A stretch of DNA of 32,000 bases from Zymomonas mobilis subsp. mobilis ATCC 10988 (GTDB lineage Bacteria > Pseudomonadota > Alphaproteobacteria > Sphingomonadales > Sphingomonadaceae). Position numbers and translations under genes: made by a program. Under the pieces are notes generated by a model. That model did no database searches and was not told where the DNA came from. It saw only the letters and a list, made by a program, of their open reading frames with translations. Location of the stretch: NCBI RefSeq assembly GCF_000175255.2, contig NC_017262.1, forward strand, positions 1,800,001-1,832,000, in the 5' to 3' direction. Positions within the stretch are counted from its first letter, which is position 1. Each line of letters starts with the position of its first letter. Below, piece by piece: positions 901-27,173 of the stretch.

Positions 901-3216
901 ATGACCATTTCCACCCTTGAAAAACCTGACATTGCCGCCGGACAGGCATCGAATGCCGAAACTCAACGGATGGACTCTGCCCTTGATCCGTGGCGGGGTT
1001 TTAAGGGGCGTAAATGGCAGCGAGAAATCGACACGCGTGATTTTATCCTGTCGAATGTCACCAGCTACACCGGCAACAGCGATTTTCTGGCCGGTATCAC
1101 GCCCAAGACAACCAAACTCTGGGAAAAATTACAAGTCTCTCTCGAGGCCGAACGGAAAACCCAAGGCGGTGTTCTCGATGTCGATACCTCCACGGTTTCC
1201 GATATCACGGCACATGCACCGGGCTTTATTGAAAAAGACCTTGAGGTCGTCGTTGGTTTACAGACCGATGCTCCGCTGAAACGGGCAATCATGCCTTTCG
1301 GCGGCTATCGCATGATTAAAAAAGGTCTGGAAGCCTATGGCTTCAAAGAAGATGAAAGCCTGTCAAAGATTTTTCCGGCTTTACGGAAAACCCATAATGA
1401 CGGTGTCTTTGATGTCTATACGCCGGAAATCATGGCTTGCCGCCGCTCCGGTATTATCACGGGTCTGCCGGATGCTTATGGTCGTGGCCGGATTATCGGT
1501 GACTATCGTCGGGTCGCGCTTTATGGCGTTGATTGCCTGATTGAAGACAAAAAAGAGCAGGGCAAGCGTCTGGAACGTAACCCCTTTGATGAAGAAACCA
1601 TCAAATTGCGGGAAGAAGTTGCTGAACAGATCAAGGCACTTCATGAATTGGCCGCAATGGCAAAAAGCTATGGCTATGACATTTCACAGCCTGCGGTAAC
1701 GGCACAGCAAGCGGTTCAATGGACATATTTTGCATATCTGGCAGCTGTTAAAGAAGCCAATGGTGCGGCGATGTCTTTGGGTCGGGTTTCGACCTTCCTC
1801 GACATCTATATCGAACGCGACTTGAAAGAAGGCCGGATTACCGAAGCCGAAGCGCAAGAGCTGGTTGACCAGTTCGTGATGAAGCTCCGCATTGTCCGCT
1901 TCCTCCGTACCCCTGAATATGACCAGTTATTCTCTGGCGATCCGACATGGGTCACGGAATCCTTGGGCGGTATGGCTATAGATGGCCGGACTTTGGTCAC
2001 AAAATCGAGCTTCCGCTTCTTGCATACTCTCGAAAATCTGGGACCCGCACCAGAACCGAATTTGACGGTTCTTTGGTCAGAAAATCTGCCTAAAGGCTTC
2101 AAAGATTACTGCGCCAAGATTTCGATCGACACCTCGTCAATCCAATATGAAAATGACGATCTGATGCGCTCTTATTGGGGCGATGATTACGGCATTGCTT
2201 GCTGTGTCTCGGCTATGCGCATCGGTAAACAGATGCAGTTCTTCGGGGCGCGCGCCAATCTCGCAAAAACACTGCTTTATGCCATCAATGGTGGCCGTGA
2301 TGAAAAAAGCGGTGTGCAGGTTGCGCCGGCCTTCGCGCCTGTCACGGGCGATATTCTGGATTACGAAGACGTCAAAAGCCGCATGGTTCAGATGATGGAA
2401 TGGCTGGCCAGCGTCTATATCAATGCTTTGAATGCCATTCACTTCATGCATGATAAATATATGTATGAACGGGTTGAAATGGCGCTCCATGATCTGGAAA
2501 TCTTGCGGACAATGGCTTGCGGTATCGCTGGCCTGTCTGTCGCCGCAGACAGCCTGTCCGCCATCAAACATGCCAAAGTTAAAATCATCCGTGACGAGCG
2601 CGGTTTAGCCACCGATTTTGAAATCGAAGGCGATTATCCGGCTTATGGTAACAATGATGACCGCGCCGATGAAATTGCGATTTGGCTGGTTGAAACCTTC
2701 ATGAATATGCTTCGGAAGCAGACGACTTATCGCCGTTCTGTTCCGACCCAGTCTATTCTGACGATCACTTCCAATGTGGTTTACGGTAAAAAGACCGGCA
2801 ATACGCCTGACGGCCGTCGGGCTGGTGAACCTTTTGCACCGGGTGCCAATCCAATGCATGGCCGCGATTTGAAAGGCCCCGTGGCCTCGATGGCGTCGGT
2901 TGCCAAATTGCCTTACGCCCATGCACAGGATGGTATCTCCAATACCTTCACCATCGTCCCCAATGCTTTGGGTATGAACAAGGAAGAACGGATTGATAAT
3001 CTTATCGGCTTGCTCTCCGGTTATTTCGGGGCAGGGGCGCATCATATGAATGTCAATGTGTTTGACCGGAATACTTTGCTGGATGCCGTCGATCATCCTG
3101 AAAAATATCCGCAATTAACCATCCGTGTTTCTGGTTATGCCGTCAATTTCGTGAAATTGACCCGTGAGCAGCAAATGGATGTTATCCACCGGACTTTCCA
3201 TGGCCTTGATAATTAA
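901..3216 (+). CDS. pflB: Formate C-acetyltransferase (pyruvate formate-lyase)
   Basis: The 771-aa ORF has the active-site Cys-Cys (GIACCVSAM) and the C-terminal glycyl-radical motif (RVSGYAVNF). It is followed directly by its activase. Confidence 0.96.
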
Positions 3217-8088: not shown

Positions 8089-8557
8089 GGGAATACCTCG
8101 GGATCGAAAGGGATAAGAGGCCGACAGGCCTTTCAATAAAACCCGCCCCCCAACAGTGATAGCCAACCTGATTTTATATAGATCAAGCGACCGCCTTTTA
8201 AAATCATCTTCCTGACAGAAAAACAGACTTCGCTTTAAAGACGAAGAAAAAGGCTCAAAAAATCAAAATCCAATATTTTTTATGCTGCCGTCATGTGAAA
8301 GGAGCAAATTCTTTCCCTTTGATCGAAATGTATAAAAAAAGGTAGAAAGGACAGTCCCGCTCCCATTTCAAAACGCCTATCCAGCCGCCAAGATTGCCCT
8401 CTTGTCGCTGATACAAAAACCAATTTTATCCCTTAAATCACCTGTGCTTGCCTCGGCATCGCTCCCTTTGCTATCCAAACGGTTATACTATTCGCTTTCA
8501 TCGCTTTGCTTCCAAGGCTAAGCCGGTATCAGCCTTGTTGAGAAAAGAGATTTCATC

Positions 8558-9141: not shown

Positions 9142-9217
<76 letters not shown>

Positions 9218-11915: not shown

Positions 11916-12426
11916 AGTACAATCTACCTATGCGGCAGTGAACGGGAATGATGGAGCCGGATCAGGCTGGGATATTTTCTAAGCTGCCTGTGCGGCAGTG
12001 AACAGCTATTTTGCTTAAGCGCAATCTCATCATGGGTTTCTAAGCTGCCTGTGCGGCAGTGAACAAGCGATGGGGTCGTATCTGCATTTTCTGTTATTTT
12101 CTAAGCTGCCTGTGCGGCAGTGAACTCGTCGCGCCACTGTCGCCGACCATCCCTTCAGTTTCTAAGCTGCCTGTGCGGCAGTGAACGATTTGGCTGACCG
12201 GTTACATGATCTCGATGCTTTCTAAGCTGCCTGTGCGGCAGTGAACACGGTTGACCATGTTGGTGACCAGACTTTTACTTTCTAAGCTGCCTGTGCGGCA
12301 GTGAACTTTTAAGGAGCGGGGTAAAACTACCCCGTTTTTTTCTAAGCTGCCTGTGCGGCAGTGAACTTCAGACGATTATCCAAGGGAGTTTAAGCGGTTT
12401 TCTAAGCTGCCTGTGCGGCAGTGAAC
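11916..12426 (-). CRISPR. CRISPR array, type I-F-style 28-nt repeat, 9 repeats / 8 spacers, transcribed on the minus strand
   Basis: Eight identical copies of TTTCTAAGCTGCCTGTGCGGCAGTGAAC (+ strand) begin at 11976, 12037, 12098, 12159, 12219, 12279, 12339 and 12399. The reverse complement is GTTCACTGCCGCACAGGCAGCTTAGAAA, the I-F consensus form. One degenerate copy lies at 11916..11943 and matches 19 of 28 positions. Spacers are 32-33 nt and all unique. The degenerate repeat at the left end and the I-F repeat orientation place the leader on the right. Confidence 0.97.
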
Positions 12427-12428
12427 TA

Positions 12429-13275
12429 GGCTCAGGACCTGTTAATTTCTTGAGTTGAGCGGGCTGTTGTGATTCACAGGTTTACCGATGGAGGTGAAGC
12501 TGTGAGTGACGTGTTTTTGCTGTCTGAGCACCAGATGGAACGGATTAAGCCGTTTTTTCCACTGGCGCATGGTGTGCCGCGTGTCGATGACCGTCGTGTC
12601 CTGAGCGGGATCGTTTACGTGATCCGCAACGGCCTTCAGTGGAAAGACGCCCCGAAAGCGTATGGCCCGCACAAGACTTTATACAACCGGTTTATCCGGT
12701 GGAGCCGCCTGGGTGTCTTTGACCGGATCTTCGTCGCCCTGACGGAGCAGGCAGGCCGTTCGAAGCGTCTGATGATCGATGCAACACATCTGAAAGCACA
12801 CCGGACAGCGGCCTCCCTGCTCAAAAAGGGGCTTTTCCCCGCCATATCGGACGCACGAAAGGCGGACTGAACTCAAAGCTTCACGCTGTATGCGATAGTC
12901 AGGGCCGCCCTGTCCGGCTGCATCTGACCGCAGGTCAGGTCAGTGACTTCAAAGGCGCGGATGTTCTGCTGGCAAATCTGCCGGAAGAAACACAAGAAAT
13001 TCTCGGGGACCGGGGATACGACAGTAATAAAATCAGACAGTCTCTCGCAGACCGGAATATCACCGCCTGTATTCCGCCGAAGAAGAACCGGAAATCAAAG
13101 CCGCCTTACGACTGGCATCTGTATAAAAAGCGTCACCTCATCGAAAATATGTTCGCAAAGCTCAAAGACTGGCGGCGTGTCGCAACACGATACGACCGGT
13201 GCGCTCACACATTCATGTCAGCAATCCATATCGCAGCAAGTTTCATCTTCTATCTCAAAGAATGAGTCCTGAGCC
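12429..13275 (+). mobile_element. IS5-family insertion sequence (IS427/IS1031-like size class, ~845-847 bp)
   Basis: The terminal inverted repeats are GGCTCAGGAC (12429/12430…) and GTCCTGAGCC (…13275). They are flanked by duplicated TA, or equally by CTAG because the site is palindromic. Removing the element restores …GTGAAC-TA-GAGTAAATAATT. It encodes a two-frame DDE transposase. Confidence 0.9.
12502..13265 (+). CDS. IS5-family DDE transposase, produced by a -1 ribosomal frameshift (or a frameshifted pseudogene)
   Basis: Frame 1 gives MSDVFLLSEHQMERIKPFFP…GVPRVDDRRVLSGIVYVIRNGLQWKDAPKAYGPHKTLYNRFIRWSRLGVFDRIF…LKAHRTAASLLKKG. The GTG at 12502 is preceded by GGAGG. The -1 frame is open from 12723 to the TGA at 13263..13265 and has no usable ATG. 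It gives …AFPRHIGRTKGGLNSKLHAVCDSQGRPVRLHLTAGQVSDFKGADVLL…GDRGYDSNKIRQSL…YKKRHLIENMFAKLKDWRRVATRYDR…. An A5G run at 12823..12828 lies in the frame overlap. Confidence 0.85.
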
Positions 13276-13450
13276 TAGAGTAAATAATTAAAAATCCCCC
13301 TAAATGAAAGGAATATCGGGCAAAAATAGCCAAATAACCCTAAAAATAGAGCCTATTTTTAACCTATTGATTTTAAAGGATTTTTTTTGCATGCCCAAAA
13401 AAGAGGGTCAAATAAAGGGTCAAAAAGACTTCACGATGTCAAAAAACAGA
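13276..13450 (-). promoter_or_regulatory. Putative displaced CRISPR leader (AT-rich)
   Basis: This sequence would abut the first repeat if the IS were removed. It is strongly AT-rich and non-coding. It contains a perfect IHF consensus on the array's strand. The extent is approximate. Confidence 0.45.
13360..13372 (-). promoter_or_regulatory. IHF consensus site (WATCAANNNNTTR)
   Basis: The minus strand reads AATCAATAGGTTA, a full match to WATCAANNNNTTR. It lies ~85-95 bp from the reconstructed leader-repeat junction. Confidence 0.4.
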
Positions 13451-13694
13451 TCGCGATCTTAACGCTTCTTTTGGCTTTTACAAAAGGAAACGATCGGAAA
13501 TTATGGCAAGAATGAAATTAGGTTATCTATTTACCCCATATCCTACCGATCATAATTATTCCGATTGACCCATAAAAACCTCATTCTCACTGTCTCCTTT
13601 GCAAAAGGAATAGGCCTTTTTATCTCGACTTCTAGAATAGAAAAAAGCCTAAAATTGGCCGCTTAAAACTTACTTCTCGTCAATAATCATCAAT

Positions 13695-13722
13695 AAAAAA
13701 GGGAGCCTTTTCACGGACTCCC
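13695..13722 (-). terminator. Rho-independent terminator downstream of purF
   Basis: The minus strand reads GGGAGTCCGTGAAAAGGCTCCC followed by TTTTTT. It lies ~30 nt after the purF stop codon. Confidence 0.7.
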
Positions 13723-13750
13723 TCTTTCAAATCTCAATATATTTGAGCGA

Positions 13751-15277
13751 TTAGGCGATAGCCACCTGTTCGGATAAACGAACCAGTTGTTCGCTAGCAC
13801 CCAATTCGCCAAGATCGGTCAGGGGCGTGGGATAGGCACCCGTAAAGCAAGCATCACAATATTGCGGCTGAGCATCATTGCGACCCTCTTCACCGACCGC
13901 ACGATAAAGGCCATCCATCGAAATAAAAGCTAAACTATCAGCGCCGATATATTCTGCCATCTGTTCGACAGTCATTTTAGCCGCCAACAATTTTGCCCGC
14001 TCCGGCGTATCTACACCATAAAAACAGCTATGACGGGTCGGTGGGCTGGCAATCCGCAAATGGATTTCCTTGGCACCCGCATCCCGAAGCATTCTGATGA
14101 TTTTGACGCTGGTTGTGCCTCTGACAATAGAGTCATCAACTAGAACCAACTTCTTGCCTTTAATCAAGGCACGGTTGGCATTGTGCTTCAGCTTCACGCC
14201 CAAATGACGGACTTGATCGCCCGGCTGAATAAAGGTGCGTCCAACATAATGGGAACGGATAATACCCAATTCAAACGGCAAAGAAGATTGCTGGGCATAA
14301 CCGATAGCGGCAGGCGTTCCTGAATCTGGCACAGGAATAACCATATCGGCATCAACCGGATTTTCGCGCGCCAATTCGATCCCGATAGATTTCCGAACGG
14401 AATAAACCGAGGTGCTACCGATCAAAGAATCCGGTCTCGAAAAATAGACATGCTCGAAAATGCAGGGGCGAGGCTTCTGCTTTTTAAAGGGATGAATAGA
14501 TTGCAGCCCTTTTTCCGAAATAATAATCAGCTCACCCGGTTCGACCTGACGGATATAGGTTCCGCCAATAATATCGAGAGCAACCGTTTCGGAAGCGACA
14601 ACAAAAGTTTCCCCGACTTTACCGAGAACCAGCGGGCGAATACCCAGCGGATCACGACAGGCAATCATGCCTTCCGGCGTCAGACAGACGAGAGAATAAG
14701 CGCCCTCAACCTGTTTTAAAGCATCAATGAATCGGTCTAACAGGCTGCGATAGCTTGAGGTCGCAACCAGATGGATAATCGTTTCAGTATCCGACGTGGA
14801 TTGAAAGATAGATCCATGACGCACCAACTGATGGCGCAAAGTTTCGGCATTGGAAATATTGCCGTTATGAGCAATCGCAAATCCGCCCGAAACCAGTTCG
14901 GCATAAAGCGGCTGAACATTGCACAAGGTGCTGGCACCGGTGGTTGCATAGCGGACATGGCCGATAGCACATGATCCGGGCAAGCTGCGGATAGCATCGT
15001 CACGGTCAAAGTTACCCGCAACGTGACCAACAGCACGACGGGAGTGGAAATTTTTCCCATCCCAGCTGGTGATACCGGCGGCTTCCTGTCCGCGATGCTG
15101 TAAAGCATGTAGTCCGAGAGCTACGACGGCAGCGGCTGTATCTGCGCCCCAAATACCGAAAACACCACATTCTTCATGAAGGGTATCATCAGATGCCCCA
15201 TTATCTAAAGATTCAGTTGTCGTCGTCAGGGTAGAGATAGAGTCGGAAAAGAGTTCGCTCGAAAGGCTAGGCGACAT
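13751..15277 (-). CDS. purF: Amidophosphoribosyltransferase
   Basis: The Ntn-amidotransferase nucleophile context is …HEECGVFGIWG. It has a PRTase motif (LVLVDDSIVRGTT). The C-terminal Cys ligands (…YCDACFTGAYP) are typical of the [4Fe-4S] class. Confidence 0.95.
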   Translation of the reverse strand: MSPSLSSELFSDSISTLTTTTESLDNGASDDTLHEECGVFGIWGADTAAAVVALGLHALQHRGQEAAGITSWDGKNFHSRRAVGHVAGNFDRDDAIRSLPGSCAIGHVRYATTGASTLCNVQPLYAELVSGGFAIAHNGNISNAETLRHQLVRHGSIFQSTSDTETIIHLVATSSYRSLLDRFIDALKQVEGAYSLVCLTPEGMIACRDPLGIRPLVLGKVGETFVVASETVALDIIGGTYIRQVEPGELIIISEKGLQSIHPFKKQKPRPCIFEHVYFSRPDSLIGSTSVYSVRKSIGIELARENPVDADMVIPVPDSGTPAAIGYAQQSSLPFELGIIRSHYVGRTFIQPGDQVRHLGVKLKHNANRALIKGKKLVLVDDSIVRGTTSVKIIRMLRDAGAKEIHLRIASPPTRHSCFYGVDTPERAKLLAAKMTVEQMAEYIGADSLAFISMDGLYRAVGEEGRNDAQPQYCDACFTGAYPTPLTDLGELGASEQLVRLSEQVAIA

Positions 15278-15699
15278 ATTTCAATCCGGCTGAAATTATC
15301 AGGTTGGGGGATAATACGCTTTTTTAACGGATTTGTCCTCCCCATTCTGATTAATTTTTAAGCAACGATTTCCAAGAAAAAAGGAGGCCACTTTACTGAT
15401 ATAAGATAATCACAGCGCCCATTACATAAAATCTCGTTTTTTATAATAAGCGATTGAATAATATCCCGTTTTTCTTTTCAAAAACAAAAAATCGGGAATA
15501 TTTTTGTTACTTACGCGTGATTAGGAAGCACTCAAATAGTATGACAGATTTAAGACAAACAAAAATATCTGATGCTCACCCGCTATCAGGATATAGTCTC
15601 TTTTAAAGAGAAGATACCCTGATTCTTTTTTGATTTTAAAATTTTACCGCGTTATTTTTTCATTATAGTAATCAATATTCTTTCTAAAAACCATTCTCA

Positions 15700-17088
15700 T
15701 CAAGACAAGATATGAGGCTGCGCCCAATCACATTCCTGATAGATAAAATCGAGATTTCCGGTTTGGTGATAGCGCGCCAATAATCTGTCAGAAAGGCTTT
15801 GACCGCTTTCTAAAATCTCACCTATCGGAGCCAAATAGCGGCTTTCATCCTGACCTTTGTCATTCAAAATAGCCCGTCTTTTCAAAGCGTCATTCATCAG
15901 TGGCCAAAGCTGTCGTCCCAAATCAAGCAAAGATTGGCGACCTCCAATCAGGGTTTTTAAACCTTTTTTCGGCACTTCATTCCGCAAGTTTCGATAGTCA
16001 TCCATGCTCCAGCTTTTGATAATATCTGAAGCGGTATCCAGTAATTCGGAATCGTAAAGGATGCTGATCCAAAAAGCGCTTAAAGCGGGCGACATCATCG
16101 CCGAAGCCCCATCTGCCCCTCTCATTTCAAGATAGCTTTTCAGGCGCACTTCAGGAAAAGCCGTAGAAAGATGGTCAACCCAATCTGATAATATTGGCTT
16201 TTCGTTGGGGAGGGCAGGTAACTCGCCCCTCAAGAAAGCGCGGAAATCCTGACCAGACGCATCAATATAGCGGCCATCCCGATAGACGAAATACATTGGA
16301 ACCGACAGCATATAGTCAATATAGCGTTCATAGCCGAAATCATCATCAAAGACGAAAGGCAAAATACCCGTGCGATGGGGATCAGTATCCGTCCATATAT
16401 GGCTGCGATAGGATGAAAAGCCGTTAGGGCGTCCTTCCAAAAAAGGCGAATTAGCAAAAAGAGCGGTTGCCAAAGGCTGTAATGCCAAGGAAACTCGAAA
16501 TTTTTTGACCATATCCGCTTCGCTGCCATAATCGATATTGGATTGAATAGTGCAGGTGCGAAGCATCATATCCAGACCGAGCTTGCCAACTTTTGGCATA
16601 TATTTGGTCATGATTTTATAACGGCCTTTAGGCATTAAAGGCAGGTCGCTACGCTTTTTGTCAGGCCAAAGACCCAATCCCAAAAAGCCTAATCCTAATT
16701 CATCGCCAACTTCTTGTGTTTGCTGGATATGGCGACATATTTCGTCATAGCTTTCATGGATAGTGCTACGAGGCGCGCCCGAAAGTTCAAACTGGCCTGC
16801 TGGTTCAAGGCTGATCGCGCCGTCATCTCCACTTAGGCCGATAATTTTATCATTTTCGTAAATCGGCTGCCAACCAAAGCGGGTAAATCCTTGTAACAGA
16901 TCACAAATGCCGCCTTTTTCTTCATAGGAAGGGGCTTGATGGTTCTGTTTTTTATAAACCAGTTTTTCATGCTCTGTGCCAACGCGCCATTGCGCCTTCG
17001 GTTTTTCACCAGCCTGAAAAATCCGTAAGAGATCATCGCGACTTTCAATCGGATGATTTTGGCTGCTGGATGTCTGACGCGTGCTCAT
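15700..17088 (-). CDS. gshA: Glutamate--cysteine ligase (plant/alphaproteobacterial type)
   Basis: It matches the GCL family-2 pattern along its length (WRVGTEHEKLVY…, …GAISLEPAGQFELSGAP…, …CTIQSNIDY…). The track start at 17115 is TTG. I prefer the ATG at 17088 (MSTRQT…). Confidence 0.88.
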   Translation of the reverse strand: MSTRQTSSSQNHPIESRDDLLRIFQAGEKPKAQWRVGTEHEKLVYKKQNHQAPSYEEKGGICDLLQGFTRFGWQPIYENDKIIGLSGDDGAISLEPAGQFELSGAPRSTIHESYDEICRHIQQTQEVGDELGLGFLGLGLWPDKKRSDLPLMPKGRYKIMTKYMPKVGKLGLDMMLRTCTIQSNIDYGSEADMVKKFRVSLALQPLATALFANSPFLEGRPNGFSSYRSHIWTDTDPHRTGILPFVFDDDFGYERYIDYMLSVPMYFVYRDGRYIDASGQDFRAFLRGELPALPNEKPILSDWVDHLSTAFPEVRLKSYLEMRGADGASAMMSPALSAFWISILYDSELLDTASDIIKSWSMDDYRNLRNEVPKKGLKTLIGGRQSLLDLGRQLWPLMNDALKRRAILNDKGQDESRYLAPIGEILESGQSLSDRLLARYHQTGNLDFIYQECDWAQPHILS

Positions 17089-17394
17089 AACACAAGATAT
17101 AGTCCCTCTATCCAAAGGCTGCCAATCTATTTAGTCGCAACTTTTAGTCCGCTCTGATAGATTTTTTCTATAGATGGATTGAATTATACTAGAGTGAAAA
17201 TTATTATTTAAAGGCATAGCAAGGATATTGCTTTGTTGCCGCCTGATCTTCGGATTTCCCCGAAATGGATCGCACTCCCCAACGGGCTTGAACAAAGCCT
17301 ATCAAAAAACACGCATCCCGCACCATATCAAGGCAAGATATTAGGCCGCTTTCAGTAAATCTTTTCTGATAATGCTATCTTTTACCAATGGTTT

Positions 17395-18165
17395 TTACAG
17401 ATTGGCCTGTCTTGGTTGTTTTTGCCAATCTCCGGCGGCGGCCATCCATAAAGCAGTTGCTGCAATAGCCGCCGTATCCGCTCTAAGAATACGGGGGCCT
17501 AAAGATACCGGAACGGCTTGTTTTACGGCGTTAATCATGTCCCGTTCTTGATCGGTGAAACCTCCCTCAGGACCCACCAAAATAGCCGCCGCCATTTTCC
17601 TTTTGGAAAGGGCTTCAATCATAGGTTCGCCACCCGTCTCATCAGCAAAGAAAAGCGCCCGATCTTCCGGCCATTCCGCTAACAGAGATTTTAAAGAACA
17701 GGCCTCTGTCACTTCTGATAGGCTGGTTCGACCGCATTGTTCTGCGGCTTCGACAATATGTGCCTGTAATCTTTCAAGATTGACCCGATCGACAATTGTC
17801 CGCTGAGTTATAACCGGTGTGATGCGAGCTACACCTAATTCACAGGCCTTCTCATAAATCCAATCAATCCGGCCTTTTTTAATAGGCGCGGTCAATAGCC
17901 ATAAGTCAGGAATAGATTCTTTTTCATTGAGATGATGCGTAATTTTCAGCTGTAAATGTTTCCGGCCAGCCTCAATCACTTCGCCCAGCCATTCGCCGGT
18001 AAGATTATCGAAAAGAACAAGCTGACTTCCCATTTTAAAACGCATAACCGACAGAAGATAATGCGCCTGCGCCCGATCAGGGGTAATAACCGCCTCCAAA
18101 GAGAGCTTTTCTTCAACATAGAGGCGGGGCAGGGTGTTTACAGGCCAAGCCGGTTCAGCGACCAT
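17395..18165 (-). CDS. rsmE: 16S rRNA (uracil1498-N3)-methyltransferase
   Basis: It has an RsmE-like N-terminal PUA-like segment (RLYVEE…HYLLSVMRFKMGSQLVLFD) and a C-terminal SPOUT segment (LVGPEGGFTDQE…LGPRILRADTAA). Confidence 0.88.
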   Translation of the reverse strand: MVAEPAWPVNTLPRLYVEEKLSLEAVITPDRAQAHYLLSVMRFKMGSQLVLFDNLTGEWLGEVIEAGRKHLQLKITHHLNEKESIPDLWLLTAPIKKGRIDWIYEKACELGVARITPVITQRTIVDRVNLERLQAHIVEAAEQCGRTSLSEVTEACSLKSLLAEWPEDRALFFADETGGEPMIEALSKRKMAAAILVGPEGGFTDQERDMINAVKQAVPVSLGPRILRADTAAIAATALWMAAAGDWQKQPRQANL

Positions 18166-18472
18166 AGGAAATTCTTCTTCTCGTTAACATCTTTGCCCTC
18201 ACCTAAAGGAAGGTCATAACGGCTTCAACCGTAATCCTTTTTCAGCTTTTTCGGCGTGGCATTCTACCAGCAAGACAATATTACAATAATGTCTATTATT
18301 TATGCTTATTGGTTTATCTTAAGCGGTTTTAAAACCGAAAAATCTTAAAATAAGGTATTGTACATATTTCAAGCCCAATAAAGGGAAGACGCGACATCTC
18401 AATAAACTGAATGCTCGCAATGCGGCGTCCAATAGAAAGGCCTTTTTACCTTTCTTTTAACATGCCCCTCAT

Positions 18473-19444
18473 CTAACCGTGCAAATAGCCAAGCCGGTCA
18501 GGCTGTTTAATCGGCTCCGCACCATAAAAAAGAGACAAGCCACTGCCTGCCGTTAATTGTCCTACCCTATATAGGTCGAATTGCTTTTCTTTGGACAGCT
18601 TTAATAGCTCTTGTCGCTTATTAGCTGCGCAAGCCATAATCAGCTGATAATCATCGCCTGCCGTTACAGCCTGTAGTCGGGTCGATTTTGTATCACCAAA
18701 ACAGCTTATCGCTTCGGATGAAAGCGGCACTCTATCCAAACGGATACGAACCGCCAAGCCGCTGGCATTGGCAATTCTCTCGGCATCAATCAGTAGACCA
18801 TCGGAAATATCAGCCATGGCATGGACATGCGGCGCTAACCAAATGCCTTCTTTTAAACGAGGCTCTGGCGAACGATAGGCCTGCACCAATTTTTCTTGAG
18901 CCGAATGGTTGATATTTTTTTTCTGTTTAAGAAGATTCAATCCAAAACCAGCATCACCAATAGGCGAGGTCACCCATAACTCGTCACCTTCTTTGGCCGC
19001 GCGCCGATCAGGCACACCACAAGACGGCGCAAGACCAATCACGGTCATTGCCGAAAAATGACCCGTATGCCGGGGAACCGCGACGGTATCACCGCCTAAT
19101 AAAGGAAGGTTATATTGATGACAGACAGATTCCAGACCTTTTAAAAAAGCCTGATCCCATTTGTAATCGGGGCCCAAACTATAGCCCATCAAAGCCCCGA
19201 TAGGCTTTGCCCCTTTGGCTGCCAGATCAGAAAGATTAACGCCGACCAGCTTTTGTGCGACAGTTTCCGGCGGATCACTGGGGAAATAATGGACATTTTC
19301 CACAATAATATCATGGGACAACACCAAATCACCCGATGGGCGAGGCAGAACCGCCGCATCATCGGACAGATTTCGGGCGGCCGGATCTCCGGCAATCTGG
19401 CGTAACGCCGTGATAAAAGCCTGTTCCCGACCGGACATTGTCAT
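18473..19444 (-). CDS. thiL: Thiamine-monophosphate kinase
   Basis: It has PurM-superfamily/ThiL motifs (GDDAAVL-like DDAAVL…, DIIVENVHYF, LSDLAAKGA, DISDGL). Confidence 0.9.
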   Translation of the reverse strand: MTMSGREQAFITALRQIAGDPAARNLSDDAAVLPRPSGDLVLSHDIIVENVHYFPSDPPETVAQKLVGVNLSDLAAKGAKPIGALMGYSLGPDYKWDQAFLKGLESVCHQYNLPLLGGDTVAVPRHTGHFSAMTVIGLAPSCGVPDRRAAKEGDELWVTSPIGDAGFGLNLLKQKKNINHSAQEKLVQAYRSPEPRLKEGIWLAPHVHAMADISDGLLIDAERIANASGLAVRIRLDRVPLSSEAISCFGDTKSTRLQAVTAGDDYQLIMACAANKRQELLKLSKEKQFDLYRVGQLTAGSGLSLFYGAEPIKQPDRLGYLHG

Positions 19445-19456
19445 CCCTATGATATA

Positions 19457-19930
19457 TTAAGCGTTATTTGATGAACGCAGTTTTTTGGCAACCGTATCCA
19501 GCAAACCGTTTACGAAATTCTTTTCTTGACGGTCATAGAAGGCATTCGCAACGTCAATATATTCGCTGATAACCGTTGCGGTTGGAACATCGGGACGAGC
19601 CAATAATTCATAAGTTCCGGCGCGCAAAATCTGGCGCATCGGACGATCTAAGCGATCGAGGCTCCATCTTTCCGACAGATTTTCAGAAATAACGCGATCT
19701 ATTTCTTCACAACGCGTACCAACCCCTCTGACAATATCGTCAAAAAAGCTCGGTTCGGCCTTGGTATAGGTCGCATCTTCAATCGTCGCGCCTAAACGAT
19801 ACTGATGGAATTCATCCAACAGAATATTGAGCGGCGTTTTTTCCATTTCGCGTTGATAGAGTGCCTGAACGGCAGCCAATCTGGCTGCCGAACGGGCGTT
19901 TTTATGAGGGCGTTTTTGCGTTTGCGCCAT
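19457..19930 (-). CDS. nusB: Transcription antitermination factor NusB
   Basis: The 157-aa product has the NusB pattern (RSAARLAAVQALYQ…, …RLDRPMRQILRAGTYEL…, …VISEYIDVA…). Its ATG overlaps the hisD stop codon (TAATG). Confidence 0.92.
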   Translation of the reverse strand: MAQTQKRPHKNARSAARLAAVQALYQREMEKTPLNILLDEFHQYRLGATIEDATYTKAEPSFFDDIVRGVGTRCEEIDRVISENLSERWSLDRLDRPMRQILRAGTYELLARPDVPTATVISEYIDVANAFYDRQEKNFVNGLLDTVAKKLRSSNNA

Positions 19931-21222
19931 TATTTATTAAGCCTTGATATCACAGATTCAGCGTGAGCAGGCAGGCCTTCAGCCTTTGCCAAAGTCACGG
20001 CCGCAGGGCCAATCTTACTTAAAGCCTCTTGCGAGCAATTAAGATAAGTGGTGCGCTTCATAAAGTCGATAACCGACAATCCAGAAGAGAAGCGCGCACG
20101 ACGACCGGTTGGCAAAACATGGTTCGGGCCACCAACATAATCGCCGATGGCTTCCGGCGTATAACGGCCAAGGAAGACCGAACCAGAGTGGTGCACATTG
20201 GCAAATAAAGCATCAGGATCGGCCACCGCCAATTCAAGATGTTCCGGTGCCAGACGGTCAACCAAAGCAGGGGCTTCGTCCAAAGACTGCACCAAAATAG
20301 TGGCGCCGTGTTTGTCCCAGCTTTCGCGGGCAACCTTTTGGGTTTCCAGTTTTTCCAGTCTTCTTCCAACGGCTTCGATCGTTTTTTCGATCAAATCTTC
20401 GGAATCAGAAATCAAAATTGACTGGCTGGTCGGGTCATGTTCAGCCTGACTTAAAAGATCGGCCGCCAACCATTCGGGATCGTTGTCCTTATCGGCAACC
20501 ACCACGATTTCAGACGGGCCTGCCACCATATCAATGCCGACCTGACCGTAAAGCTGACGCTTAGCTTCAGCCACCCAAGCGTTACCGGGGCCGACAACGA
20601 CATCAACCGGTTTGATCTTTTCAGTTCCCAAGGCCAAAGCCGCGACAGCCTGTGCGCCACCAATTTTCCAGATTTCATCGACTTCGGAAATCACAGCAGC
20701 GGCAATCACGGCTGGATTGACAAAGCCATCTGGAGTTGGGGTCACCATAACCAGACGCTTCACACCAGCGACCTTTGCTGGCACGGCATTCATCAAAACA
20801 GAAGAACAATAAGCGGCACGTCCACCCGGAACATAAAGACCGGCGGCTTCAACGGCCTGCCAACGAACACCCATACGAACGCCAGCGGCATCGGTCATCT
20901 CGCTGCTTTCAGGCAGCTGGTTTTCGTGGCAGTAACGAATACGGGTCGCAGCCAGTTTTAAAGCGTCCATCAATTCCGAAGGCAGGGAATCACAAGCCTT
21001 CTTGATTTCTTCTTGGGTCAGCTGCCATCCACCCTTATTCAGATCATGACGATCGAATTTCTGGGTCAATTCGGCAATAGCAACGTCACCCCGTTTTTTG
21101 ACATCGGCAATAATGGCCGAGACATCACGGGAAACATCGCCTTCGCTTTCCCGTCTTTCATCAACTAACCGAGTAAAATCAGCTTGGAAATCAGCCTTAC
21201 GGCTATCTAATTTAAGCAACAT
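19930..21222 (-). CDS. hisD: Histidinol dehydrogenase
   Basis: HisD motifs are present throughout (…[25 protein letters not shown]…, …[12 protein letters not shown]…, …SQAEHD…, …[12 protein letters not shown]…). The track start at 21231 is TTG. The ATG at 21222 (MLLKLDS…) is preferred. Confidence 0.94.
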
Positions 21223-21880
21223 TATCCGCAACTCCTACCAAACGGCGGAAATTTTCAACCAAGGGCGCAATATCGCCCGCCCGCATTTTGAACGCGGCAC
21301 GGTTGACAATCAGACGAGCGGAAATCGGCATAATTTTTTCGACTTCAACCAACCCGTTTTCTTCCAAGGTGCGCCCTGACGAGACGAGATCGACAATCCG
21401 GCCCGCAAGACCCAGAGCAGGGGCGATTTCCATCGCACCATTGAGCTTAATACACTCAGCCTGAACCCCGCGAGCCTCGAAATGTCGATGCGTCAAATGC
21501 GGGTATTTGGTAGCAACACGGACATGGCTCCATTCCCGTGGGTCATCATCTTTCGCAAGCCTTTTCGGCTCCGCTATAGAAAGACGACAGTGACCGATAT
21601 CAAGGTCAACTGGCGCATAAAGCTCGGGATAGCTGAATTCTTCAATAACATCGGAACCGACAATACCCATCTGGGCAGCCCCATGCGCAACAAAGGTTGC
21701 AACATCAAAGGCGCGAACCCGAATAATTTCGATATCGGGGCGGTTCGTTTTGAAGCGCAGCAACCGGCTTTCTTTATCCAGAAAGGCCGGCTCAGGAATG
21801 ATACCGGCGGCTTCCAACATAGGAAGCGCCTCTTTCAGAATACGACCTTTCGGGATAGCAAAGACAAGCGGTTTAGTCAT
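21212..21880 (-). CDS. hisG: ATP phosphoribosyltransferase, short form
   Basis: The 222-aa product has HisG motifs ([11 protein letters not shown]…, …[14 protein letters not shown]…). Its length matches the short HisG class that normally works with HisZ. Confidence 0.92.
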
Positions 21881-21968
21881 GATGGAGGTTCCATACCCCT
21901 TGAAGCCCTATTCAGCAAGAAAAGGCGACATAAAAAGGCGAAAAAAAACAGATAAAAGAGAAGTCAGG

Positions 21969-22274
21969 CTATTCCTGCCTTAAAGGCGTGTCCAGTTTCA
22001 GTCTTAAAGCATGAATCCGGTCAGGTAATAGGTCTGATAGCGCCTTATGGACCATTCTTTCCCGACTGATTCGGCTTTCATTTTCAAATGCTTGGGAAAC
22101 AAGGGTTACCGTAAAATGGCTTTCGCTCCGATGCGGATGACCGGCATGACCAGCATGCTTGTTGCTATCATCTTCAATGACCAGTGTCTCCGGCGAGAAA
22201 GCAGCCTCTAAACGTTCCCGCATTAAACGCGTGACGGGGCCTTCATTATTGTCGGATGGACTGGACATATTCAT
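21969..22274 (-). CDS. BolA-family protein
   Basis: The 101-aa product has the BolA pattern (…DDSNKHAGHAG…SHFTVTLVSQAFENESRISRERMVHKAL…IHALRLKLDTP). Confidence 0.85.
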   Translation of the reverse strand: MNMSSPSDNNEGPVTRLMRERLEAAFSPETLVIEDDSNKHAGHAGHPHRSESHFTVTLVSQAFENESRISRERMVHKALSDLLPDRIHALRLKLDTPLRQE

Positions 22275-22596
22275 AAAATTTCCCTCGGCTTTGGGTTTAT
22301 CGCTATAACAGCCTATTCTAAATTGAGATGATTTGAAAATTTTCCAGACTAATTTTTATTTTTAGGCTCGAAGGATGCCAGAATAACGGGATTTTAATGG
22401 CTATTCTTACAGAAAATTCTTGGAAAAATGGCCTGAATGACAAGGCCGTCATCGCGCTTCTCTTCGCAAATGAGGGTTTTAATGGATCGGTAAAAATTTC
22501 GAGGGATAACGGCTTCTCATTTTAAAATATTCAGCAATCTGTCCGATCAAAGAAAGCGGTTATTATCCTTTTACCCTCGATCCTCGAAAATAGGAC

Positions 22597-22625
22597 GGAG
22601 TAGTCTCTTTTAAAAAGACTCCTCC
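22597..22625 (-). terminator. Possible terminator hairpin just downstream of shc
   Basis: The minus strand reads GGAGGAGTCT-TTTTAAAAG-AGACTACTCC, with 9 of 10 stem pairs. It begins ~12 nt after the shc stop codon. The T-tract is poor, so the assignment is tentative. Confidence 0.35.
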
Positions 22626-22637
22626 GCCCCAATATTA

Positions 22638-24815
22638 TCAATTATTCAAATCAATCAGTCTCTCTGCCCGACTTAACGCCATAATCGGGAAGAATTGCCG
22701 ATAAAAATCATAACGCAGCATAAACGCCCGTGACAGTTCAGCGCCTTGAAGCAATCGTTTCGACAAAGCCGGATCATCCAACTTGATCGTCTGACCCACG
22801 CCATAACCGGGGAATCCGGTGCCGGTGAATTCTTCTTCTTTCCAGCTACCATCCTGCTCTTGGCGATCAATCAGATAATGGCATCCCTTGGCAATGGCTT
22901 CATAATCTTCGGGACGATTGGCCGCGATCAACCCCATCAAAGCCCAAGCGGTCTGGGACGGCGTAGTTGGGCCCTTCCCAATGGAATCAATCTCCATATA
23001 GGAAGAGCAGCTTTCGCCCCAACCGCCGTCTTCCTGCTGATGTGCGACCAGCCAATCGCAAGCCTTCGTGATGTAAGGCTGGGTCATATCTTCACCGATC
23101 GCCGCCAAAGCAGGCAGAACCGCACCGGTGCCATAGATATAATTAACGCCCCAACGACCAAACCACGCGCCTTCGGCTTCCTGTTCGGAACGGACATAGT
23201 CGATCGCTTTTTGGATGACCGGCATATCGCGGGACAGTCCCAAGGTGCCAAAGGCCTCTAAAACATGCGCCGTTACATCGACTGAAGGCGGATCAATAGA
23301 TTCTCCGAAATCACAAAAAGGAATTTTGGAAAGGATACTTCTGTTATTATCCTTATCAAAGGCTCCCCAACCGCCACATTCGCTTTGCATGGCGATCAAC
23401 CAATTAACCCCACGGGTAATGGCATCCTCAACGCCTTTCTTTTGCCACTCTTCCTTATCACGATAAGAGGAAAGGGCGATCAAAGCGACGGCGGTATCAT
23501 CGGTATCGGGATAGCGATCATTGGCATATTCAAATGCCCATCCACCGGGTTCAACATCAGGTAGTTTGATTGACCAATCGCCTTTGACTTTGACCTGTCG
23601 AGCCAAAAGCCAATCGGCGGCCTTATCCATTTCCGGCGTAAAACGATCCTCGGCCTTGGCGTCTTTTAACGCCATCAAGGCCAACATTGTATCCCATACC
23701 GGACTATTGGTGGCCTGTATCCAAGAAGACTCGCCTCTGTCATGTCGCCAACCGGGATCATCCAAAGCCGACAAAGCCTTGGCCATCACCGGATGATAAA
23801 GCTGATAGCCTTCACCATGTAACGCCATCAAACCATAGACCCAAGGCGGCTGAATTCCACCCCAACCGCCATCGGCATCCTGATGCCGGATAATCCATTC
23901 CAAAACGTGACGGATAGCGGCTTCACGCAAGCTATTGCGCTTTAACAGATTGGACTGAACCCAATGTAATCCACGGTCAGTGGTTCGGAAAAATTGCGAC
24001 CAAAGATTGATGCCTTCTTTTTTCGGCAATTCATAATCAAAGCGAGCGCGGCCTTCTGGAAACAGTTCATCCAAGCGGTCTTGGGGGCGCAGCGGGCGGC
24101 TTGGTCGTCTCGCGGACAGAATAGCAATCGGCACCATGGTTGCCCGCGCCCATTGGGCAAAATTATAAATCGAAAAGACAAAATTATCAGGGAACCAGAT
24201 AATTTCAGGGGGAAGGTTAGGGGTCTTTTCCCAAGGCCATTCCCCGATCAACGCCAGCCAATAACGGGTAAAGACACGGATATTTTTTAATCCGCCTTTT
24301 TCTGCAATCCATGTTGCCGCTTTTTTCAAAACAGGATTGTCGGCAGAATACCCCAAAGACCGCAAAGCCGCATAGGCTTCAACCGTGGCATTGATATCGC
24401 CATTTCCAGCGCCAAAATAGACCCCCCAAGAGCCATCTTCCCGCTGCATTTCCAAAAGAGCATTGCCCAATCTTGGACGAAGCGGATGATCTTCCAGACC
24501 CAAAAACCACAAGGCCAGACACCATTCTGCTTCCATCGAAGCATTGGATTCCACGGCACCGACCCAATGACCATCGGGCTTTTGTTGTCCGATCAACCAG
24601 TCACAGGCTGAAACAAGGGTATTATTCAGACTATTCCCCATAGTCTTGAATATCGTTTTGTCGACTTTTGCCGTCGGTTCAGGCCGCCGATTCGGTCTTC
24701 TCAGGGTATCCGTTCCGATTATGGTATCGGAAGCCGGTTTATACGAGGTTTTTTCAGCCCCGAAAATCTTCTTCATTAACAAGCGACTTAAGCTATTCAT
24801 TCTGTCAATACCCAT
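22638..24815 (-). CDS. shc: Squalene-hopene cyclase
   Basis: It has multiple QW repeats (…QKPDGHW, QREDGSWG, HQDADGGWG, MQSECGGWG, EQEAEGAWFGRWG, HQQEDGGWGE, RQEQDGSWKE). It has the class-II terpene cyclase catalytic motif DTDDTA (…YPDTDDTAVAL). The start is uncertain: the first 58 aa precede the conserved core, and M59 (24641) is an alternative. Confidence 0.95.
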   Translation of the reverse strand: MGIDRMNSLSRLLMKKIFGAEKTSYKPASDTIIGTDTLRRPNRRPEPTAKVDKTIFKTMGNSLNNTLVSACDWLIGQQKPDGHWVGAVESNASMEAEWCLALWFLGLEDHPLRPRLGNALLEMQREDGSWGVYFGAGNGDINATVEAYAALRSLGYSADNPVLKKAATWIAEKGGLKNIRVFTRYWLALIGEWPWEKTPNLPPEIIWFPDNFVFSIYNFAQWARATMVPIAILSARRPSRPLRPQDRLDELFPEGRARFDYELPKKEGINLWSQFFRTTDRGLHWVQSNLLKRNSLREAAIRHVLEWIIRHQDADGGWGGIQPPWVYGLMALHGEGYQLYHPVMAKALSALDDPGWRHDRGESSWIQATNSPVWDTMLALMALKDAKAEDRFTPEMDKAADWLLARQVKVKGDWSIKLPDVEPGGWAFEYANDRYPDTDDTAVALIALSSYRDKEEWQKKGVEDAITRGVNWLIAMQSECGGWGAFDKDNNRSILSKIPFCDFGESIDPPSVDVTAHVLEAFGTLGLSRDMPVIQKAIDYVRSEQEAEGAWFGRWGVNYIYGTGAVLPALAAIGEDMTQPYITKACDWLVAHQQEDGGWGESCSSYMEIDSIGKGPTTPSQTAWALMGLIAANRPEDYEAIAKGCHYLIDRQEQDGSWKEEEFTGTGFPGYGVGQTIKLDDPALSKRLLQGAELSRAFMLRYDFYRQFFPIMALSRAERLIDLNN

Positions 24816-24830
24816 ACGAAACAGACAAAT

Positions 24831-25397
24831 TTATTTGAATGATGCACGGCCAGCTTGCGCTGACGGCACCAGTTTTTTGATATCGTCGAACACCGTCGCC
24901 CATTCGCTTTCCGACATTTTGATAAAGCCGAGGCTTCTTAGAAAAAAAGCGCCCTCGGCCGCAAAAAGCATGGTGCGGATATGCCTTGCCTCTTCGGATT
25001 GTCCCAAATTTTTCTCCATCCATCTGGCATACCATGCCTGTATTTTCTTCAGATGATTGGGCGATTGCAGTAACGTCACCAACATGCCTACCATGCGGGC
25101 GCTGGTGGCATCATCAATCTGGCTGGATGCCTGCACATAAGCACGGGCTTCTCCGGCGGGACTATCATCCGATTGGCTATATTCCTTTACTTCACAATCA
25201 AAAGCAGCAAACCAGCGGTCAATCAAAGCCGTAATCAAATCGTCTTTGCTACCGAAACAATATTGTAATCCGCCCTTGGTAATGCCCGCCTCTTTGGCCA
25301 CTGCTTCGAGAGTCATTGCGGTTGCGCCTGCTCTTTGAACCAGTTGTTCCGCAGACTTCAAGACCCTTTCCCTGTCAATGGTTCTGGGGCGTGCCAT
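24831..25397 (-). CDS. TetR-family transcriptional regulator
   Basis: It has an N-terminal helix-turn-helix of TetR type (…ERVLKSAEQLVQRAGATAMTLEAVAKEAGITKGGLQYCFGSKDDLI…). The stop codon is 15 nt upstream of the shc start on the same strand. Confidence 0.88.
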   Translation of the reverse strand: MARPRTIDRERVLKSAEQLVQRAGATAMTLEAVAKEAGITKGGLQYCFGSKDDLITALIDRWFAAFDCEVKEYSQSDDSPAGEARAYVQASSQIDDATSARMVGMLVTLLQSPNHLKKIQAWYARWMEKNLGQSEEARHIRTMLFAAEGAFFLRSLGFIKMSESEWATVFDDIKKLVPSAQAGRASFK

Positions 25398-25414
25398 AAA
25401 TACCTCATTATTTC

Positions 25415-25432
25415 ATTCCATCCGGCTGGAAT
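25415..25432. promoter_or_regulatory. Candidate TetR operator (18-bp near-palindrome)
   Basis: ATTCCATCCGGCTGGAAT is symmetric at 16 of 18 positions. It lies 18-35 bp upstream of the tetR ATG, in the 134-bp divergent region shared with the J-domain gene. Confidence 0.4.
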
Positions 25433-25531
25433 TAAACTAGAAATTTTTTACTTTCAAGCTATATCTAAGAAGGATATCGCGAGACAGGAAAGGACAAGGC
25501 TCTTTAACTTCGATATTCCAAGAGCCGGAAT

Positions 25532-26155: not shown

Positions 26156-26183
26156 TATCACAAGTTATTCTCAAGGAAAGATC

Positions 26184-27167: not shown

Positions 27168-27173
27168 TATGTA

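What the first reader, a model, noticed from the sequence alone, without database searches (positions are those of the whole stretch)
12399..13372. IS5-family element inserted exactly at the CRISPR leader-repeat junction
The repeat form and the degenerate repeat at the far end show that the array is read on the minus strand. The leader should therefore abut the repeat at 12399..12426. Instead the IS left inverted repeat starts 1-3 bp after that repeat (…GTGAAC TA GGCTCAGGAC…). Removing the element with its TA/CTAG duplication rejoins the repeat to an AT-rich non-coding tract (…GTGAAC-TA-GAGTAAATAATTAAAAATCC…). That tract carries a perfect IHF consensus ~90 bp away.

In I-E and I-F systems the leader-proximal bases and IHF-induced bending direct Cas1-mediated integration, and the leader normally supplies the promoter. 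The insertion should therefore uncouple this array from adaptation. It should also either silence the array or place it under read-through or IS-derived transcription, antisense to the transposase. This would be a natural case of a mobile element disabling or rewiring a CRISPR array at its single most sensitive position.
Basis: partly seen in the sequence, partly recalled or inferred. Interest (0 to 1): 0.75.

Follow-up and report, generated by a model that had tools for sequence, protein, structure and literature searches.

The report
IS splits CRISPR leader from array
An 847-bp IS5-family insertion sequence sits exactly between a Zymomonas mobilis type I-F CRISPR array and its leader because that junction spells the element's preferred CTAG target; this is a tidy natural mutant that probably blocks spacer uptake at this array, but it is an ordinary kind of event and its effects are untested.

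Summary
A type I-F array lies on the minus strand: eight perfect 28-nt repeats plus a degenerate terminal repeat, 11916..12426. It is separated from its AT-rich leader (13278..13750) by an 847-bp IS5-family element (12429..13275) flanked by a TA duplication. At least six IS-free Z. mobilis alleles, and ZM4 by inference, read ...TTATTTACTCTA|GTTCAC.

The position has a simple cause. Twelve insertion sites of this IS and its relatives all duplicate TA, and nine lie in CTAG. The leader's last three bases plus the repeat's first G spell CTAG, a tetranucleotide four-fold under-represented here. Five other I-F arrays have no CTAG at that junction. A scan of 185,579 species genomes found no second case.

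The coordinates match strain ATCC 10988. A sister assembly carries a second IS copy in cobT and a 16-kb inversion, which puts the leader 16 kb from the array.

Loss of spacer acquisition at this array is a well-grounded inference from I-F leader requirements. Expression is unknown. The leader promoter-like site lies upstream of the IS, and no outward IS promoter or strong terminator was found. This is a new instance of a known kind, of modest interest.

The parts
11916..12426 (-). Type I-F CRISPR array. It has eight exact 28-nt repeats, eight spacers of 32-33 nt and a degenerate terminal repeat (11916..11943). No cas genes lie in the window.
   Evidence: Pfam scans of the flanking ORFs show no cas genes
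12399..12426 (-). Leader-proximal (first) repeat. It now abuts TA plus the left end of the IS.
12427..12428 (.). TA target-site duplication on the array side. In IS-free alleles these are the last two bases of the leader.
12429..13275 (+). IS5-family insertion sequence, 847 bp. The terminal inverted repeats are 12429..12438 and 13266..13275. The transposase reads on the + strand, antisense to the array.
12469..13265 (+). Transposase gene. orfA (12469..12870, DUF4096) is joined to the -1 frame DDE part, which ends at 13265. The slippery stretch CTCAAAAAGGGGC is at 12820..12832. Two other assemblies (GCA_006716005.1; A. ascendens pAP1447-1) annotate a single product of about 254-265 aa.
13276..13277 (.). 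TA target-site duplication on the leader side.
13278..13750 (-). Displaced CRISPR leader, the purF-to-array intergenic region. It is near-identical to the sequence that directly abuts repeat 1 in IS-free strains (one 2-nt variant, ggggag for gggggat, within the 60 nt compared).
13360..13372 (-). Perfect IHF consensus AATCAATAGGTTA (WATCAANNNNTTR), at -85..-97 from the restored junction.
13370..13398 (-). Promoter-like site TTGGGC-17-TAAAAT facing the array and overlapping the IHF site. A transcript from here must cross the whole IS to reach repeat 1.
   Evidence: Z. mobilis sigma-A consensus TTGNNN/TANNNN from PMC7566282
13695..13722 (-). Intrinsic terminator of purF. It equals PreTerm_1366/TTS_1603 of ZM4 and marks the distal limit of the leader.
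28621..28624 (.). CTAA site inside cobT. It is intact here. In the sister assembly GCA_006716005.1 it carries a second IS copy, which bounds a 16.2-kb inversion of window 12429..28622.

Best explanation
What it is. An active IS5-family element transposed into its preferred target, the palindrome CTAG, duplicating the central TA. The element is 847 bp, has 10-bp perfect terminal repeats and a two-frame DDE transposase joined by a -1 frameshift. At this locus CTAG is formed by the last three leader bases (CTA) and the first base (G) of the first I-F repeat. The insertion therefore lands exactly at the leader-repeat junction of the purF-linked orphan array. The strain is Z. mobilis ATCC 10988, identified by matching coordinates. 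All of this is shown.

Consequences, inferred. All leader motifs now lie about 850 bp further from repeat 1: the IHF site at -85..-97, the inverted repeats and the promoter-like site at about -95..-120. In type I-F systems, Cas1-Cas2/3 and IHF must fold about 150 bp of leader directly against the first repeat. Polarised spacer integration at this array should therefore be lost, while the strain's other arrays could still acquire spacers.

The array has no promoter of its own downstream of the IS. No convincing outward promoter is visible in the IS end. crRNA production would then depend on read-through from the leader promoter across 849 nt of untranslated RNA antisense to the transposase. I expect expression to be reduced but not necessarily abolished.

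The insertion is most likely a chance hit on a tolerated non-coding CTAG, not a CRISPR-directed event.
For: Structure and exact junction.

IS-free alleles: six or more strains carry five different spacer sets but the same leader end ...ACTCTA|GTTCAC.

ZM4 allele: it is IS-free at the expected coordinate. The purF terminator is at 1592338 and the first repeat at about 1592755.

IS family.

Target preference: all 12 insertion sites duplicate TA. Nine are CTAG, two CTAA and one TTAG.

Rarity of CTAG: 13 native sites in 32 kb against about 55 expected.

Recent activity: copies differ by 0-2 SNPs across Zymomonas and metagenome contigs. A sister assembly has an extra copy in cobT plus an inversion.

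Not a general I-F feature: none of five other I-F leader-repeat junctions forms CTAG. No second occurrence of IS end + TA + repeat was found in the GTDB species genomes.

Leader requirement in I-F systems: bioRxiv 10.1101/2023.05.26.542337 and PMC9602844.

Promoter and terminator scan: promoter-like sites lie in the leader. Inside the IS on the array strand there are only weak terminator-like sites, at chance level.

Strain identity: the array coordinates 11916..12426 equal ATCC 10988 'CRISPR4' at 1811916-1812426, with 8 spacers.
Against: No transcript, TSS or spacer-acquisition data exist for this strain in what I could reach. The expression and adaptation consequences are therefore untested.

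Only one IHF consensus was found, with no second site within one mismatch. The canonical two-IHF/two-IR I-F leader is thus not demonstrated here.

The consensus promoter scan is weak evidence. Z. mobilis -10 elements are loose (PMC7566282), so a cryptic outward promoter in the IS cannot be excluded.

The PLoS One S1 table lists no csy4 for ATCC 10988. If that is real, the whole system may be inactive and the insertion would have no consequence. I could not check this.

The strain assignment rests on matching coordinates, not on a sequence record.
Confidence: 0.8

Rival explanations
1. The IS, or its carrier plasmid, homes to CRISPR leader-repeat junctions as an anti-CRISPR strategy. On this view the exact position reflects selection or a targeting mechanism, not chance.
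For: The insertion is at the single most sensitive base step. An IS copy with the same two SNPs as one chromosomal copy sits on a 32-kb contig that may be a plasmid in the sister assembly. IS inactivation of cas genes under selection is documented (PMC10359306).
Against: The other 11 insertion sites are unrelated to CRISPR and simply share CTAG/YTAR. No second case was found in 185,579 species genomes. None of five other I-F junctions offers CTAG. No spacer of this array matched plasmid or phage records.
Confidence: 0.04
2. The insertion has no functional effect. Either the I-F system of this strain is already defective, or read-through keeps the array fully expressed while adaptation simply proceeds at the other arrays.
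For: The PLoS One S1 table lists cas1, cas3 and csy1-3 but no csy4 for ATCC 10988. No strong terminator lies in the IS on the array strand. The array is orphan, far from the cas genes. Its eight spacers are within the range seen at this locus in other strains, 5-29.
Against: The repeats are all perfect, which argues against long decay. The missing csy4 may be an annotation gap. I-F integration needs the leader next to the repeat, so at least adaptation at this array should be affected if the system is active.
Confidence: 0.15
3. The junction is an assembly artefact, or the IS lies inside the array and not at its leader end.
For: Multi-copy ISs and CRISPR repeats both break short-read assemblies. 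Contigs L006 and L007 end at this point.
Against: The same leader-TA-IS junction is seen in three independent data sets: the window, GCA_006716005.1 and SRR066225. The same IS-TA-repeat junction is seen in L016. The TA duplication is clean. No repeat lies to the right of the IS. IS-free strains place this leader directly on repeat 1.
Confidence: 0.01

Closest known systems
IS5-family insertion sequences with TA duplication in CTAG/YTAR targets. By my recollection of ISfinder groupings this is the IS427-like subgroup; that subgroup assignment was not tested here.
   Same: DDE transposase matching NF033580. DUF4096 N-terminal part. Two frames joined at an A-rich slippery site. Short terminal inverted repeats. 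TA duplication inside CTAG. YTAR is the published IS5 target motif (PMC10359306).
   Different: IS5 itself duplicates 4 bp; this element duplicates 2 bp. The nearest sequenced relatives (85-88% identity) are on Acetobacter and Gluconobacter plasmids. I could not retrieve an ISfinder name.
IS transposition inactivating CRISPR-Cas (Sheng et al. 2023, PMC10359306)
   Same: A natural IS insertion into a CRISPR-Cas locus that is expected to impair immunity.
   Different: The 28 natural cases in that paper are in cas genes and abolish interference. Here the cas genes are untouched, and the hit separates the leader from the array. That should affect adaptation and perhaps expression of one array only.
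Type I-F leader architecture (P. aeruginosa Cas1-2/3-IHF integration complex, bioRxiv 10.1101/2023.05.26.542337; A. baumannii leader truncations, PMC9602844)
   Same: An I-F repeat beginning with GT. An AT-rich leader with an IHF consensus and palindromic elements within about 150 bp of repeat 1 in the IS-free allele.
   Different: Only one IHF consensus was found, and the inverted-repeat motifs were not matched to published logos. In the window the whole leader is displaced by 849 bp.
Tn7-like transposons that target CRISPR repeats (bioRxiv 10.1101/2024.10.13.618069)
   Same: A mobile element found in direct contact with a CRISPR repeat.
   Different: Those elements select CRISPR arrays as their attachment sites. 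This IS selects any CTAG and shows no association with CRISPR at its other 11 sites.

Membership tests
IS5 family insertion sequence | DDE transposase of the IS5 type | tested here: met
   NF033580 transpos_IS5_3 at 279 bits (cut-off 110). Pfam DUF4096, DDE_Tnp_1, DDE_Tnp_1_2 and DDE_Tnp_1_3.
IS5 family insertion sequence | Terminal inverted repeats bounding the element | tested here: met
   GGCTCAGGAC and GTCCTGAGCC, 10 of 10 bases, with an imperfect extension. The ends are conserved in all copies.
IS5 family insertion sequence | Short target-site duplication in a YTAR/CTAG target | tested here: met
   TA is duplicated at 12 of 12 sites. Nine are CTAG, two CTAA and one TTAG.
IS5 family insertion sequence | Mobility (evidence of transposition) | tested here: met
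   Copies differing by 0-2 SNPs occur at different sites in Zymomonas, in metagenome contigs and on a 32-kb contig. A new copy in cobT is present in the sister assembly but absent from the window. This evidence is indirect; no transposition assay was done.
IS5 family insertion sequence | Transposase made by programmed -1 frameshift (a subgroup trait) | tested here: inconclusive
   There are two overlapping frames with CTCAAAAAGGGGC at 12820..12832. A 265-aa product is on record for GCA_006716005.1 over a 797-nt span that includes the frame change. Frameshifting itself was not measured.
Type I-F CRISPR array | 28-nt GTTCACTGCCG...CTTAGAAA repeats with 32-33-nt spacers | tested here: met
   Eight exact repeats, each hitting Rfam CRISPR-DR4 at 50.1 bits. 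Start-to-start spacing is 60-61 nt. The repeat is identical to the Z. mobilis I-F repeat of PMC6868425.
Type I-F CRISPR array | Associated cas1-cas2/3-csy1-4 operon | not testable with these tools
   None lies in the 32-kb window. The literature lists I-F cas genes elsewhere in Z. mobilis genomes, with csy4 not listed for ATCC 10988.
Type I-F CRISPR array | Leader with two IHF sites and two inverted repeats next to repeat 1 | tested here: inconclusive
   One perfect IHF consensus at -85..-97 and palindromes at 13342..13360. No second IHF site within one mismatch. In the window these motifs are displaced by the IS.
Type I-F CRISPR array | Polarised acquisition at the leader end, active in the species | tested here: met
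   IS-free strains share the leader and the terminal repeat but share no spacers, except that L002 and L005 are identical. For the IS-bearing allele itself this was not tested.

The most novel reading that the evidence does not exclude
CTAG-targeting IS elements may recurrently exploit leader-repeat junctions that happen to spell CTAG, with selection favouring such hits because they freeze an array without killing interference. ATCC 10988 and its inversion derivative would then be natural separation-of-function alleles: a leader without an array and an array without a leader. The leader might still direct Cas1-2/3 to integrate ectopically at the leader-IS boundary.
Probability: 0.05. Interest if true: 0.65.

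Novelty: new member of a known kind. Interest (0 to 1): 0.33.

Why it matters
The insertion gives a ready-made natural mutant for testing in vivo what a type I-F leader does. In one lineage the leader is pushed 849 bp from repeat 1. In a sister lineage it is moved 16 kb away and inverted. Many IS-free strains carry the same leader and the same terminal repeat.

It also matters practically. Z. mobilis strains are engineered with their endogenous I-F system, and users of ATCC 10988-lineage strains should know that this array lacks an adjacent leader.

Conceptually it adds little. IS disruption of CRISPR-Cas loci is established, and the exact position follows from the target preference.

Tried and rejected
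1. Misassignment to ZM4. I first took the window for ZM4 'CRISPR2' because both have 8 spacers in 511 bp. I nearly applied the crRNA and interference data of Zheng et al. 2019 for C2S1 and C2S7. Calibration against ZM4 terminator tables and the PLoS One CRISPR table showed otherwise. The purF-linked ZM4 array is the IS-free CRISPR3/4, and the window matches ATCC 10988 coordinates. Those data do not apply and were withdrawn.

2. ZM4 TSS and promoter supplements (PMC7566282). The TSS table is truncated before this region. No promoter entry was found for 1592300-1592899.

3. The sequence of the 'CRISPR2 leader' used in pL2R could not be retrieved.

4. Genome-collection scan for IS end + TA + repeat. 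It returned only a chance hit inside a coding gene of an archaeal MAG.

5. Metagenome scan with the IS left end returned one contig.

6. The leader was searched against E. coli genomes for shared I-F leader motifs. Nothing meaningful was found.

7. The array was searched against plasmids and phages for protospacers. Only other I-F repeats matched in plasmids, and nothing matched in phages.

9. I verified a Csy4 query sequence against the PDB. I did not run the large homology search, because its hits carry no organism names and could not settle whether ATCC 10988 has csy4.

Full report
**Observation**

The window carries a type I-F CRISPR array on the minus strand.
- There are eight exact copies of GTTCACTGCCGCACAGGCAGCTTAGAAA at 11976..12426, with none expected by chance.
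- Start-to-start spacing is 60-61 nt.
- A degenerate terminal repeat, GTTCACTGCCGCATAGGTAGATTGTACT, lies at 11916..11943.
- All eight repeats match Rfam CRISPR-DR4 on the minus strand.

Immediately beyond the last base of the first repeat (12426) comes TA (12427-12428). An 847-bp element follows (12429..13275), ending in GGCTCAGGAC and GTCCTGAGCC. Then comes TA again (13276-13277), followed by AT-rich non-coding DNA up to the purF stop codon at 13751.

The element encodes a DUF4096 + DDE transposase in two frames. The fused 265-aa product scores 279 bits on NCBIfam NF033580, IS5 family, against a cut-off of 110. No CRISPR repeat lies to the right of the IS. There are no cas genes in the 32 kb.

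**IS-free alleles**

I looked up the exact PurF and short-chain-dehydrogenase proteins in public assemblies. This returned the same locus from other Z. mobilis strains.

In CP003715.1, CP021053.1, GCA_047722895.1, GCA_007829055.1, GCA_047719815.1 and a Logan contig, the leader reads ...TTTTTAATTATTTACTCTA and is followed directly by GTTCACTGCC. Deleting the IS and one TA from the window gives exactly this sequence.

These strains carry 5 to 20 spacers at the locus. Two near-identical strains apart, they share none with each other or with the window. The locus is therefore a live acquisition site in the species.

**Which strain**

I first mistook the window for ZM4. The error was caught by calibrating against published tables.

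The ZM4 terminator tables place the purF terminator (window 13695..13722) at CP023715.1 position 1592338. A repeat followed by a spacer absent from the window lies about 417 nt further on, with no room for an IS (PMC7566282 supplements). In ZM4 this locus is thus the IS-free CRISPR3/4 of Zheng et al. 2019. Its spacer C3S4 yields a mature crRNA and strong plasmid interference (PMC6868425).

The CRISPR table of PMC5919020 lists ATCC 10988 'CRISPR4' at 1811916-1812426 with 8 spacers in this orientation. This equals the window's 11916..12426 plus 1,800,000. I infer that the window is ATCC 10988 chromosome 1,800,001-1,832,000. No expression or adaptation data for this strain were found.

**Why exactly there**

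I collected insertion sites of the same IS (0-2 SNPs) from Zymomonas, other genomes and metagenome contigs. I added its 85-88% identical relatives on Acetobacter and Gluconobacter plasmids.

All 12 sites show a TA duplication. Nine reconstruct to CTAG, two to CTAA and one to TTAG. The leader ends in CTA and the repeat starts with G, so the junction is a canonical target.

CTAG is scarce here: 13 native sites in 32 kb against about 55 expected. That extrapolates to several hundred in the genome, an estimate made from this one window. A hit on this particular site is unlikely for any one event, but it needs no special mechanism. A second CTAG lies in the same intergenic region at 13632.

Five other I-F arrays on plasmids have no CTAG at their leader-repeat junction. 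A scan of 185,579 species-representative genomes for the 20-mer spanning IS end, TA and repeat found only a chance match in an archaeal gene. I see no evidence for CRISPR-directed homing.

**The leader and expected consequences**

The displaced leader has one perfect IHF consensus at 13360..13372 (minus strand), which is -85..-97 in the restored allele. Such a match arises in 6.4% of shuffled leaders and in 1.8% of shuffled proximal 160-nt stretches. No second site exists within one mismatch.

A promoter-like TTGGGC-17-TAAAAT (13398..13370) overlaps the IHF site and faces the array. It fits the Z. mobilis sigma-A consensus TTGNNN/TANNNN (PMC7566282).

Published I-F work shows that Cas1-2/3 and IHF fold about 150 bp of leader against the first repeat. 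This leader contains two IHF sites and two inverted repeats (bioRxiv 10.1101/2023.05.26.542337). A leader cut to 60 bp supports no acquisition in A. baumannii (PMC9602844). Moving every leader motif 849 bp away should therefore abolish leader-guided integration at this array. This is inference.

For expression, the IS left end shows no TTG-type -35 in its last 105 nt. The only promoter-like hit downstream of the IS starts inside repeat 1 and spacer 1, so it could not yield a first crRNA (and direct reading). Terminator-like sites in the IS on the array strand are weak and at chance frequency. Read-through from the leader promoter across the IS, antisense to the transposase, is the most likely source of any crRNA. 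The level is unknown.

**A sister lineage**

GCA_006716005.1 carries the same eight spacers, but window 12429..28622 is inverted.
- One end is leader-TA-IS joined to the ssb/feoB side.
- The other end is truncated cobT-TA-IS-TA-repeat 1.
- The array-side copy is identical to the window's IS.
- The leader-side copy has two SNPs (G334A, G702A), also found in a copy on a 32-kb contig of the same assembly.

This pattern fits a second, plasmid-type copy inserting at CTAA in cobT (window 28621..28624). Homologous recombination within the last 145 bp of the IS would then produce the inversion. It shows that the IS is active in this lineage. It also provides a variant in which leader and array are 16 kb apart.

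**Verdict**

The structural observation is confirmed. The functional reading is plausible and partly well grounded, but untested. The apparent precision of the hit is explained by the element's target specificity. This is a new instance of a known phenomenon, IS damage to CRISPR loci. It is useful as a natural allele series but not a surprise to a specialist.

One caveat remains. The PLoS One table lists no csy4 for ATCC 10988. If that is real, the whole system may be inert in this strain.

Noticed in passing
window 12429..28622; L001 8003..8849; L016 about 2320..3170: The sister assembly GCA_006716005.1 has a 16.2-kb inversion bounded by two inverted IS copies. The second copy disrupts cobT (620 aa cut to 490 aa) at a CTAA site. 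The SNP pattern of the two copies indicates recombination between the resident IS and a plasmid-type copy.
   Followed up: yes
whole window: CTAG is about four-fold under-represented: 13 native sites against about 55 expected from dinucleotide-preserving shuffles. This concentrates the insertions of a CTAG-targeting IS on few sites.
   Followed up: partly
L017 3222..3652 and L019 28..458: In two other strains a 431-bp non-repeat segment with small ORFs (58-61 aa) sits between the last full repeat and the degenerate terminal repeat of this array. The gap between ZM4's CRISPR3 and CRISPR4 may be a similar feature.
   Followed up: partly
L004/L018, first and third spacers (L004 8030..8069, 8158..8191): The NRRL B-1960 allele has an unusually long 40-nt leader-proximal spacer and a 34-nt third spacer. 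All others are 32-33 nt.
   Followed up: no
L003 8272..8404: One spacer (CAATACCATCCGCGCC...) appears twice. The second copy is interrupted by a run of N, which is probably a scaffolding artefact in GCA_047722895.1.
   Followed up: no
window 12375..12404 (minus strand): A promoter-like TAGAAA-18-GATAAT is formed by the end of repeat 1 and spacer 1. If active, it would transcribe the array from spacer 1 onward without producing the first crRNA.
   Followed up: no
L008 and L010 (CP016328.1, JH668184.1): These IS copies are identical to the window's element over the first 476 bp, then differ at 83 positions. They lack the normal right end, which suggests a recombinant or truncated relative nested among other transposase genes.
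   Followed up: no
PMC5919020 S1 table: ATCC 10988 is listed with cas1, cas3 and csy1-3 but without csy4. This is either an annotation gap or a defective I-F system in this strain.
   Followed up: no
window 9142..9217 (minus strand): A tRNA-Lys(CTT) gene lies between the DUF481 gene and the NMN-transporter gene. It is unrelated to the finding.
   Followed up: no
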